64,000 nt of DNA from the NCBI RefSeq assembly GCF_003334815.1, contig NZ_QOWO01000009.1. One strand, written 5' to 3'. Every line of letters starts with the position of its first letter. Positions within the stretch are counted from its first letter, which is position 1. Positions 54,043-57,000 of the stretch are shown here, in pieces. A program made the position numbers. The DNA is from Escherichia coli (GTDB taxonomy: Bacteria > Pseudomonadota > Gammaproteobacteria > Enterobacterales > Enterobacteriaceae).

Positions 54043-57000
54043 TAAGGACACGATAATGACGATTTTTGATAATTATGAAGTGTGGTTTGTCATTGGCAGC
54101 CAGCATCTGTATGGCCCGGAAACCCTGCGTCAGGTCACCCAACATGCCGAGCACGTCGTTAATGCGCTGAATACGGAAGCGAAACTGCCCTGCAAACTGG
54201 TGTTGAAACCGCTGGGCACCACGCCGGATGAAATCACCGCTATTTGCCGCGACGCGAATTACGACGATCGTTGCGCTGGTCTGGTGGTGTGGCTGCACAC
54301 CTTCTCCCCGGCCAAAATGTGGATCAACGGCCTGACCATGCTCAACAAACCGTTGCTGCAATTCCACACCCAGTTCAACGCGGCGCTGCCGTGGGACAGT
54401 ATCGATATGGACTTTATGAACCTGAACCAGACTGCACATGGCGGTCGCGAGTTCGGCTTCATTGGCGCGCGTATGCGTCAGCAACATGCCGTGGTTACCG
54501 GTCACTGGCAGGATAAACAAGCCCATGAGCGTATCGGCTCCTGGATGCGTCAGGCGGTCTCTAAACAGGATACCCGTCATCTGAAAGTCTGCCGATTTGG
54601 CGATAACATGCGTGAAGTGGCGGTCACCGATGGCGATAAAGTTGCCGCACAGATCAAGTTCGGTTTCTCCGTCAATACCTGGGCGGTTGGCGATCTGGTG
54701 CAGGTGGTGAACTCCATCAGCGACGGCGATGTTAACGCGCTGGTCGATGAGTACGAAAGCTGCTACACCATGACGCCTGCCACACAAATCCACGGCAAAA
54801 AACGACAGAACGTGCTGGAAGCGGCGCGTATTGAGCTGGGGATGAAGCGTTTCCTGGAACAAGGTGGCTTCCACGCGTTCACCACCACCTTTGAAGATTT
54901 GCACGGTCTGAAACAGCTTCCTGGTCTGGCCGTACAGCGTCTGATGCAGCAGGGTTACGGCTTTGCGGGCGAAGGCGACTGGAAAACTGCCGCCCTGCTT
55001 CGCATCATGAAGGTGATGTCAACCGGTCTGCAGGGCGGCACCTCCTTTATGGAGGACTACACCTATCACTTCGAGAAAGGTAATGACCTGGTGCTCGGCT
55101 CCCATATGCTGGAAGTCTGCCCGTCGATCGCCGCAGAAGAGAAACCGATCCTCGACGTTCAGCATCTCGGTATTGGTGGTAAGGACGATCCTGCCCGCCT
55201 GATCTTCAATACCCAAACCGGCCCAGCGATTGTCGCCAGCTTGATTGATCTCGGCGATCGTTACCGTCTACTGGTTAACTGCATCGACACGGTGAAAACA
55301 CCGCACTCCCTGCCGAAACTGCCGGTGGCGAATGCGCTGTGGAAAGCGCAACCGGATCTGCCAACTGCTTCCGAAGCGTGGATCCTCGCTGGTGGCGCGC
55401 ACCATACCGTCTTCAGCCATGCACTGAACCTCAACGATATGCGCCAATTCGCCGAGATGCACGACATTGAAATCACGGTGATTGATAACGACACACGCCT
55501 GCCAGCGTTTAAAGACGCGCTGCGCTGGAACGAAGTGTATTACGGGTTTCGTCGCTAAGTAGCCGCATCCGGTATGTAACGCCTGATGCGACGCTGACGC
55601 GTCTTATCTGGCCTACACGCTGCGATTTTGTAGGCCGGATAAGCAAAGCGCATCCGGCATTCAACGCCTGATGCGACGCTGGCGCGTCTTATCAGGCCTA
55701 CGCGCTGCGATTTTGTAGGCCGGATAAGCAAAGCGCATCCGGCATTCAACGCCTGATGCGACGCTGGCGCGTCTTATCAGGCCTACGCGCTGCGATTTTG
55801 TAGGCCGGATAAGCAAAGCGCATCCGGCATTCAACGCCTGATGCGACGCTGGCGCGTCTTATCAGGCCTACGCGCTGCGATTTTGTAGGCCGGATAAGCA
55901 AAGCGCATCCGGCATTCAACGCCTGATGCGACGCTGGCGCGTCTTATCAGGCCTACACGCTGCGATTTTGTAGGCCGGATAAGCAAAGCGCATCCGGCAC
56001 GAAGGAGTCAACATGTTAGAAGATCTCAAACGCCAGGTATTAGAAGCCAACCTGGCGCTGCCAAAACACAACCTGGTCACGCTCACATGGGGCAACGTCA
56101 GCGCCGTTGATCGCGAGCGCGGCGTCTTTGTGATCAAACCTTCCGGCGTCGATTACAGCGTCATGACCGCTGACGATATGGTCGTGGTTAGCATCGAAAC
56201 CGGTGAAGTGGTTGAAGGTACGAAAAAGCCCTCCTCCGACACGCCAACTCACCGGCTGCTCTATCAGGCATTCCCCTCCATTGGCGGCATTGTGCATACG
56301 CACTCGCGCCACGCCACCATCTGGGCGCAGGCGGGTCAGTCGATTCCAGCAACCGGCACCACCCACGCCGACTATTTCTACGGCACCATTCCCTGCACCC
56401 GCAAAATGACCGACGCAGAAATCAACGGCGAATATGAGTGGGAAACCGGTAACGTCATCGTAGAAACCTTTGAAAAACAGGGTATCGATGCAGCGCAAAT
56501 GCCCGGCGTTCTGGTCCATTCCCACGGCCCGTTTGCATGGGGCAAAAATGCCGAAGATGCGGTGCATAACGCCATCGTGCTGGAAGAGGTCGCTTATATG
56601 GGGATATTCTGCCGTCAGTTAGCGCCGCAGTTACCGGATATGCAGCAAACGCTGCTGGATAAACACTATCTGCGTAAGCATGGCGCGAAGGCATATTACG
56701 GGCAGTAATGACTGTATAAAACCACAGCCAATCAAACGAAACCAGGCTATACTCAAGCCTGGTTTTTTGATGGATTTTCAGCGTGGCGCAGGCAGGTTTT
56801 ATCTTAACCCGACACTGGCGGGACACCCCGCAAGGGACAGAAGTCTCCTTCTGGCTGGCGACGGACAACGGGCCGTTGCAGGTTACGCTTGCACCGCAAG
56901 AGTCCGTGGCGTTTATTCCCGCCGATCAGGTTCCCCGCGCTCAGCATATTTTGCAGGGTGAACAAGGCTTTCGCCTGACACCGCTGGCGTTAAAGGATTT

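What the first reader, a model, noticed from the sequence alone, without database searches (positions are those of the whole stretch)
56712..56727. SOS box places polB under LexA control
CTGTATAAAACCACAG lies in the 74-bp araD-polB spacer, just after the araD stop, so the polB promoter is squeezed between an operon end and its own start.
Basis: partly seen in the sequence, partly recalled or inferred. Interest (0 to 1): 0.2.

Follow-up and report, generated by a model that had tools for sequence, protein, structure and literature searches.

The report
Known LexA operator of polB
This is the long-known, weak LexA (SOS) operator of the E. coli DNA polymerase II gene polB, sitting over the -35 region of a promoter that is interleaved with the araBAD terminator; it is real and conserved, but ordinary textbook biology.

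Summary
CTGTATAAAACCACAG is at 56712-56727, 3 nt after the araD stop, in the 74-bp araD-polB spacer of an E. coli chromosome that is identical to K-12 over this stretch.

It matches the published polB (dinA) SOS box base for base. As a matrix match it is weak. It is the weakest of 18 published sites, with a leave-one-out heterology index of about 12.6. A consensus scan finds no sigma-70 promoter here.

Three other lines of evidence settle it:
- **Conservation.** CTGTA.A.A...CAG is invariant upstream of polB in 76 Enterobacteriaceae species, while flanks and gap are only about 42% identical. It lies exactly 20 nt from a conserved TATAAT/TATACT in 77 of 80 loci. It stays with polB where araD is about 1 kb away.
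- **Mapped start.** A published SMRT-Cappable-seq start (K-12 65,803 = window 56760) lies 7 nt after that -10. This puts the box at -48..-33, overlapping the -35 position.
- **Published induction.** polB is UV-induced and listed in the LexA regulon.

The -10 lies in the loop of the araBAD terminator hairpin, and the start lies in its 3' arm.

Interest is low.

The parts
56706..56708 (+). araD stop codon (TAA), end of the araBAD coding region
   Evidence: ORF 56013-56708; annotated araD in identical records.
56710..56729 (.). 20-bp LexA operator GACTGTATAAAACCACAGCC. It spans -50..-31 relative to the mapped TSS.
   Evidence: Identical to the published polB site. Leave-one-out HI 12.59, the best of 25 CTG-N10-CAG sites in the window.
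56712..56727 (.). 16-bp palindromic core CTGT-N8-ACAG (the reported finding). It spans -48..-33.
   Evidence: CTGT, A7, A9, A11 and CAG are invariant in 76 species. The 40-mer around it is 100% identical in 4866 of 5385 E. coli genomes, and all sampled variants differ only outside the core.
56725..56730 (+). Weak -35 hexamer CAGCCA (3/6 match to TTGACA), 17 bp upstream of the -10. Its first 3 nt are the right half-site CAG of the operator.
   Evidence: Position inferred from the -10 and the TSS. The -35 matches only 1-3 of 6 in all species.
56738..56766 (+). Hairpin with GC core CCAGGC (56742-47) / GCCTGG (56757-62) and a 7-nt loop. It looks like the intrinsic terminator of araBAD.
   Evidence: Folds (-16.2 kcal/mol for the 42-nt segment). 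Retained in most species, and lost in several where araD is not adjacent. The 3' end was not mapped here.
56763..56768 (+). T6 run following the hairpin (terminator U-tract). It also forms the first bases of the polB 5' UTR.
   Evidence: Sequence.
56748..56753 (+). polB -10 hexamer TATACT, located in the hairpin loop.
   Evidence: TATAAT in 68 and TATACT in 12 of 80 loci, mean identity 0.98, exactly 20 nt from the box in 77 of 80. The mapped TSS is 7 nt downstream.
56760..56760 (+). polB transcription start site (K-12 65,803, reverse strand), inside the 3' arm of the hairpin.
   Evidence: Yan et al. 2018 SMRT-Cappable-seq Supplementary Data 2, with coordinate conversion. The UV-induced transcript start from tiling arrays is at about 56757-58.
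56783..59134 (+). polB coding sequence (DNA polymerase II, 783 aa, GTG start), preceded by a 23-nt leader.
   Evidence: The GTG is conserved across the species alignment.

Best explanation
The 16-mer is the core of the single LexA operator of polB (dinA), which encodes DNA polymerase II. A LexA dimer bound at -50..-31 covers the weak -35 region and the DNA just upstream. It therefore blocks RNA polymerase from a promoter that depends mainly on its near-consensus -10 (TATACT in this strain, TATAAT in most relatives). After DNA damage, RecA-stimulated LexA self-cleavage frees the site and polB is transcribed from window 56760 as a monocistronic mRNA with a 23-nt leader. The operator is a poor match to consensus, so LexA binds weakly and polB is derepressed early and has appreciable basal expression. 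The promoter is interleaved with the araBAD terminator: the -10 is in the hairpin loop and the start site is in the 3' arm. polB transcripts therefore lack the 5' arm and cannot form the terminator. Shown here: the sequence, its conservation and spacing, and the mapped start. Taken from the literature: UV induction. Established knowledge or inference, not tested here: LexA binding itself, steric occlusion as the mode of repression, and termination at the hairpin.
For: - The sequence is identical to the published polB SOS box, found upstream of a UV-induced gene and transcript.
- Reviews list polB in the LexA regulon and link its early induction to weak LexA binding.
- A polB promoter reporter responds to UV in a dose-dependent way.
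- 79 of 80 species loci carry a LexA-type box upstream of polB.
- CTGT and CAG are invariant, against 0.41-0.43 identity in the flank and gap.
- The box-to--10 distance is exactly 20 nt in 77 of 80 loci, although the gap sequence varies.
- The box and -10 persist where araD lies 660-1000 nt away and the hairpin is lost, e.g. Salmonella.
- The TSS at K-12 65,803 = window 56760 is 7 nt after the -10.
- polB appears as a single-gene operon in that dataset.
- The box is invariant in all sampled E. coli variants.
Against: - The additive matrix score is poor: 6.45 bits, last of 18 sites. Eleven other window positions score higher, although these lack one intact half-site.
- The consensus promoter scan finds nothing, because the -35 matches only 3 of 6.
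- No LexA footprint, ChIP or operator-mutant data could be retrieved from the held library. Direct binding therefore rests on reviews and on my memory of Iwasaki 1990, Lewis 1994, Fernandez de Henestrosa 2000 and Wade 2005.
Confidence: 0.95

Rival explanations
1. The palindrome is a chance match in an A/T-rich spacer and does not bind LexA in a functionally meaningful way. polB induction would then be indirect.
For: Low matrix score, with several equal or better additive scores elsewhere in the window. CTGT-N8-ACAG also occurs once more in the window by chance.
Against: CTGT and CAG are invariant across 76 species while neighbouring columns are saturated. The spacing to the -10 is fixed. The site is the best in the window with two half-sites. 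Chance expectation for the spacer is about 6e-4. Published work treats it as the polB SOS box.
Confidence: 0.02
2. The box belongs to the araBAD operon and not to polB. For example, it could act as a LexA roadblock or a 3'-UTR element just after the araD stop, upstream of the terminator.
For: It lies 3 nt after the araD stop and within the transcribed araBAD 3' region, upstream of the hairpin. In several genera the araD stop codon abuts the operator or forms its 5' flank.
Against: Where 0.66-1.2 kb is inserted between araD and polB (Salmonella, several Citrobacter, Phytobacter, Pseudocitrobacter, Siccibacter), the box stays with polB at the same distance from the -10 and is absent from the araD end.
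Confidence: 0.02
3. The operator is real but not the whole story. Its invariant central A-run may double as an UP-like contact for the RNA polymerase alpha subunit, compensating for the missing -35. Transcription arriving from araBAD would run through both operator and promoter before terminating at +9, coupling polB expression to arabinose.
For: Operator positions 9-12 are A in 69-76 of 76 species, far more uniform than the same positions in 17 E. coli LexA sites. The -35 matches 1-3 of 6 everywhere. The terminator T-run ends downstream of the polB TSS. AACCAGG upstream of the -10 stays conserved even where the 3' arm is lost.
Against: No experimental data. The A-run could reflect a preference of LexA or DNA bending. 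SMRT-Cappable-seq shows only a monocistronic polB transcript, though without arabinose. The UP-element consensus is recalled from memory.
Confidence: 0.2

Closest known systems
E. coli polB (dinA) SOS box, the LexA operator of the DNA polymerase II gene
   Same: The sequence is identical to the published site ATGACTGTATAAAACCACAGCCAAT. The locus is the same, with 100% identity to MG1655 65,773-65,863. It sits upstream of the mapped polB TSS.
   Different: Nothing; this is that element. This analysis only adds cross-species spacing and conservation figures and places the box relative to the araBAD hairpin.
Canonical strong E. coli LexA operators (e.g. sulA, umuDC, recN, consensus TACTGTATATATATACAGTA)
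   Same: CTGT-N8-ACAG palindrome, A/T-rich centre, overlaps the promoter of a DNA-damage-inducible gene.
   Different: Much weaker match: G1, C13, C14, C19 and C20 depart from consensus, and it ranks last of 18 leave-one-out. It lies over and upstream of the -35, not between -35 and -10 as in recA or over the start site.
Intrinsic (Rho-independent) terminator of the araBAD operon
   Same: GC-rich stem CCAGGC/GCCTGG, 7-9-nt loop, T6 run, 30 nt after the araD stop.
   Different: It contains a functional -10 hexamer in its loop and the downstream gene's TSS in its 3' arm. Its terminator activity was not tested here, and the consensus scan scored it only on the minus strand.

Membership tests
Gammaproteobacterial LexA operator (SOS box) | CTG and CAG half-site cores separated by 10 bp (CTGT-N8-ACAG palindrome) | tested here: met
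   Exact match at 56712-56727. Invariant in 76 species.
Gammaproteobacterial LexA operator (SOS box) | Overall similarity of the 20-mer to the consensus. The heterology index should be below the roughly 15 limit for binding (limit recalled from Lewis 1994, not retrieved). | tested here: met
   Leave-one-out HI 12.59 with a 17-site table from PMC3009722. This is marginal: weakest of 18 sites, 6.45 bits. Orthologous boxes score 2.8-12.2, median 8.3.
Gammaproteobacterial LexA operator (SOS box) | Overlaps or abuts the promoter of the regulated gene | tested here: met
   TSS at window 56760. The box spans -48..-33 and its CAG lies within the -35 hexamer position. Spacing of 20 nt to the -10 is fixed in 77 of 80 loci.
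Gammaproteobacterial LexA operator (SOS box) | Downstream gene induced by DNA damage | not testable with these tools
   Literature only: UV-induced gene and transcript, UV dose-responsive promoter reporter, reviews.
Gammaproteobacterial LexA operator (SOS box) | Direct LexA binding (footprint, EMSA, ChIP) | not testable with these tools
   The primary papers are not held. One search reports LexA off-rates for 28 native E. coli operators, but the held text does not list them by name.
Bacterial sigma-70-type promoter | -10 and -35 hexamers with 16-18 bp spacing and a TSS 5-9 nt after the -10 | tested here: inconclusive
   -10 TATACT matches 5/6 and is conserved, and the TSS is 7 nt downstream. 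The -35 CAGCCA matches only 3/6, and the consensus scan reports no promoter.
Intrinsic terminator | GC-rich hairpin immediately followed by a U-run, at the end of a transcription unit | tested here: met
   Stem CCAGGC/GCCTGG plus T6, 30 nt after the araD stop. It weakens or is lost in several lineages where araD is not adjacent.
Intrinsic terminator | Mapped RNA 3' ends in the U-run | not tested
   No araBAD 3' end was found in the held supplement. The only araBA entry there ends short of araD.

The most novel reading that the evidence does not exclude
The araBAD terminator, the polB core promoter and the LexA operator form one interlocked module: the operator sits in the araBAD 3' UTR, the -10 in the hairpin loop, and the TSS in the 3' arm. 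Arabinose-driven transcription would then sweep LexA off the operator and/or occlude the polB promoter, coupling DNA polymerase II expression to sugar catabolism. In addition, the unusually invariant A-run in the operator centre may double as an UP-like RNA polymerase contact that compensates for the absent -35, so that LexA would compete directly with the alpha subunit.
Probability: 0.2. Interest if true: 0.35.

Novelty: already known. Interest (0 to 1): 0.08.

Why it matters
It matters little beyond confirmation. polB/dinA has been a recognised SOS gene since 1990, and this operator appears in every compilation of E. coli LexA sites.

There are two useful by-products. First, the case shows that an additive weight matrix would have rejected a genuine operator. 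Conservation, fixed spacing to the -10 and a mapped start were needed to rescue it. Second, the terminator/promoter interleaving and a natural IS200 allele that separates the operator from the promoter offer cheap tests of how position-dependent LexA repression is.

Tried and rejected
- **Additive LexA matrix.** Built from 17 published sites and scanned over the window. It ranks polB 12th in the window, behind sites with only one half-site, so it was rejected as a sole criterion. I replaced it with a heterology index plus a two-half-site requirement.
- **Consensus promoter scan**. It found no promoter because the -35 is 3/6. The terminator scan called the hairpin only on the minus strand, because its stem extension consumed part of the T-run.
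- **TATAAA inside the box as the -10.** Rejected because a start at about 56727 would include the whole terminator hairpin, and the mapped TSS is at 56760.
- **AACCAGG as the right half of a second LexA box.** Rejected because there is no CTG 10 nt upstream.
- **Primary papers.** Dapa 2017, Wade 2005, Iwasaki 1990 and Thomason 2015 are not held.
- **Literature searches** for 'polB promoter', for HI 12.09, for LexA ChIP, and for araD/polB/terminator gave nothing useful.
- **Ettwiller 2016 Cappable-seq GTF.** It is held only for the first part of the plus strand, so it could not be used.
- **Culyba 2018 supplements** are not held.

Full report
**Observation.** The sequence at 56712-56727 reads CTGTATAAAACCACAG.
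- The araD ORF ends with TAA at 56706-56708, and the 783-codon polB ORF starts with GTG at 56783. The spacer is therefore 74 bp and the box starts 3 nt after the stop, as reported.
- The 1-kb stretch around it occurs in 5401 of 5426 complete E. coli genomes, always annotated araD | polB. An identical record shows araB-araA-araD-polB-rapA, all on the same strand.
- MG1655 is 100% identical over 56700-56790 (K-12 65,863-65,773, minus strand). This gives the conversion K-12 = 122,563 - window position.

**Is it more than chance?**
- CTGT-N8-ACAG occurs twice in the window against 0.68 expected. The other copy, at 46937, has a GC-rich centre and a heterology index of 17.5. For a 74-nt spacer the expectation is about 6e-4.
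- I built a weight matrix from the 17 other LexA sites printed in Table 4 of Thomassen et al. 2010 (PMC3009722). Left out of training, the polB 20-mer GACTGTATAAAACCACAGCC scores only 6.45 bits. That is last of the 18 sites, and eleven other window positions score higher.
- The loss comes from G1, C13 and C20, about -4.2 bits each, because those bases never occur there in the training set.
- The higher-scoring window positions all lack one intact half-site. Among the 25 CTG-N10-CAG sites in the window, polB has the best heterology index: 12.59 leave-one-out, 8.5 if included.
- The site is therefore a genuine but marginal matrix match.

**Literature.**
- The 25-mer 56708-56732 is identical to the polB entry in the published table of motifs upstream of UV-induced E. 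coli genes. The same paper finds the motif 46-47 nt upstream of the start of a UV-induced polB transcript.
- Reviews list polB in the LexA regulon, and one ascribes the early induction of polB and dinB to weak LexA binding.
- A polB promoter reporter shows UV-dose-dependent timing and is classed as a 'middle' SOS promoter.
- The primary binding papers are not in the held library. Direct LexA binding is therefore taken from reviews and from my memory of Iwasaki 1990, Lewis 1994 and Fernandez de Henestrosa 2000.

**Comparative evidence.** A scan of one genome per species with the first 300 residues of PolB returned 80 Enterobacteriaceae loci at 77-97% identity.
- In 79 of them a LexA-type box is the best-scoring 20-mer in the 200 nt upstream of polB, always at the same place. 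The exception is cut by a contig end.
- In 76 loci that align without gaps, operator positions 3-7, 9, 11 and 16-18 (CTGTA, A, A, CAG) are invariant. The 16-mer averages 0.90 identity, against 0.41 for the 20 nt upstream and 0.43 for the 10 nt downstream.
- The box is followed, after a gap of exactly 20 nt in 77 of 80 loci, by TATAAT (68 loci) or TATACT (12 loci). The gap keeps its length but not its sequence, which is the signature of an operator-promoter spacing constraint.
- Where 0.66-1.2 kb of unrelated DNA separates araD from polB (Salmonella, several Citrobacter, Phytobacter, Pseudocitrobacter, Siccibacter), the box and the -10 stay with polB. This excludes the idea that the box serves araBAD.
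- The Escherichia operator has the worst heterology index of all 80 loci (12.6, against a median of 8.3). The cause is G1 and C20, where most relatives have A.
- Within E. coli the 40-mer around the box is 100% identical in 4866 of 5385 genomes. Every variant I inspected differs only outside the 16-mer.

**Promoter.** The consensus scan finds no sigma-70 promoter in 56500-57000.
- The conserved hexamer TATACT at 56748-56753 predicts a start near 56760.
- SMRT-Cappable-seq (Yan et al. 2018, PMC6131387, Supplementary Data 2) lists the operon 'b0060' with its TSS at 65,803 on the reverse strand, which is window 56760 (columns defined). polB is found in only one transcriptional context.
- The tiling-array transcript start (about 56757-58) agrees.
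- Relative to this start the 16-mer spans -48..-33 and the 20-mer spans -50..-31.
- The -35 hexamer for a 17-bp spacer is CAGCCA (56725-56730, 3/6). Its first three bases are the right half-site of the operator. The -35 is poor (1-3 of 6) in every species.
[quoted passage not shown] This mode of repression is inferred, not tested.
- From memory, GCTATACTCAA also resembles the sigma-S -10 consensus KCTAYRCTTAA. That would fit the report that RpoS is needed for full polB expression (Dapa 2017, as cited).

**Terminator overlap.** Between the box and polB lies AAACCAGGC-TATACTCAA-GCCTGGTTTTTT.
- The GC stem is CCAGGC (56742-47) paired with GCCTGG (56757-62), followed by T6 at 56763-68. The 42-nt segment folds at -16.2 kcal/mol.
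- Located 30 nt after the araD stop, it has the form of the araBAD intrinsic terminator.
- The polB -10 is in its loop and the polB start is in its 3' arm. polB mRNA therefore lacks the 5' arm and cannot terminate itself.
- RNA polymerase finishing araBAD must traverse the LexA operator and the whole polB promoter.
- The hairpin is strong (-12 to -18 kcal/mol) wherever araD is adjacent. It is weakened or lost in Salmonella, C. sedlakii, Pseudocitrobacter, Phytobacter and others where araD is distant. It is retained in some loci with another co-oriented ORF upstream. It is thus separable from the operator/-10 module.
- I did not find mapped araBAD 3' ends.

**Comparison with what is known, and verdict.** This is the polB/dinA SOS box itself, not a relative of it.
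- It meets the sequence, position and conservation criteria for a LexA operator.
- Damage inducibility is documented in the literature. Direct binding could not be re-examined here.
Two qualifications apply: the matrix score is low, and the 'squeezing' is actually an interleaving with the araBAD terminator.
- Novelty: already known. Interest is low.
- The only readings with any novelty are untested inferences: that the invariant A-run of the operator doubles as an UP-like element, and that araBAD transcription interferes with or feeds into polB expression.

Noticed in passing
L082 2537-3250 (E. coli Z1323HEC0462, NZ_CP148331.1); corresponds to window ~56736/56737: An IS200C copy (tnpA on the opposite strand) is inserted exactly in the variable 20-nt gap between the LexA box and the polB -10, moving the operator about 710 bp upstream of the promoter. 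This is a natural operator-displaced allele. H12 (NZ_CP051751.1) also matches only from about 56739 onward. 9 of 5398 genomes lack full coverage of the spacer.
   Followed up: partly
window 56748-56753: The polB -10 is polymorphic within E. coli. It is TATACT in the window, K-12 and EC36, and TATAAT (perfect consensus) in five of the six other E. coli strains sampled and in E. albertii. About half of the genomes fall in the 95-99% identity band for the 91-nt spacer.
   Followed up: partly
window 56710-56729 versus L002-L081: The Escherichia polB operator is the weakest of the 80 loci (HI 12.6, against a median of 8.3 and a best of 2.8 in Lelliottia). The cause is G at position 1 and C at position 20, where most genera have A.
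   Followed up: yes
window 56740-56747 (AACCAGGC): The 8 nt just upstream of the -10 are 97% identical across species. AACCAGG persists in Salmonella, C. sedlakii and Pseudocitrobacter, where the complementary 3' arm has been lost. So pairing in the hairpin cannot be the only constraint on it. This is unexplained.
   Followed up: partly
window 56718-56721 (operator positions 9-12): The operator centre is A-A-A-A in 69-76 of 76 species. This is much more uniform than the same positions in 17 different E. coli LexA sites (A/T mixed), hinting at a second constraint such as an UP-like contact.
   Followed up: no
L006-L081, between araD and polB: Several genera carry 0.66-1.2 kb inserted between araD and the polB operator, with differing content. 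Salmonella and some Citrobacter have opposite-strand ORFs. Phytobacter, Superficieibacter, some Citrobacter and L066 have a co-oriented ORF of about 207-216 aa that may encode a membrane protein. Siccibacter has a 372-aa ORF.
   Followed up: no
window ~56795 (after polB codon 4): Most genera have a 6-nt (two-codon, GCGAGA-like) insertion after GTG GCG CAG GC that is absent from Escherichia, Citrobacter and Salmonella. The GTG start itself is conserved.
   Followed up: no
window 38627-38646, 43731-43750, 46937-46952: Other LexA-like matches are present. TACTGGATACAAAAACGGAT (minus strand, HI 11.7) and CACCTTATTTACTAACAGTA (minus strand, HI 12.5) each have only one intact half-site. CTGTTGCTGTGCACAG has both cores but a GC-rich centre (HI 17.5). 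None looks like a functional operator.
   Followed up: partly
window 56739-56765: The terminator scan reports the hairpin only on the minus strand, where no gene ends. The A-run before the stem and the T-run after it give it a bidirectional look.
   Followed up: no
E. coli genome search: Three matches to the araD-polB junction lie on records classed as plasmids and not chromosomes. These were not examined.
   Followed up: no
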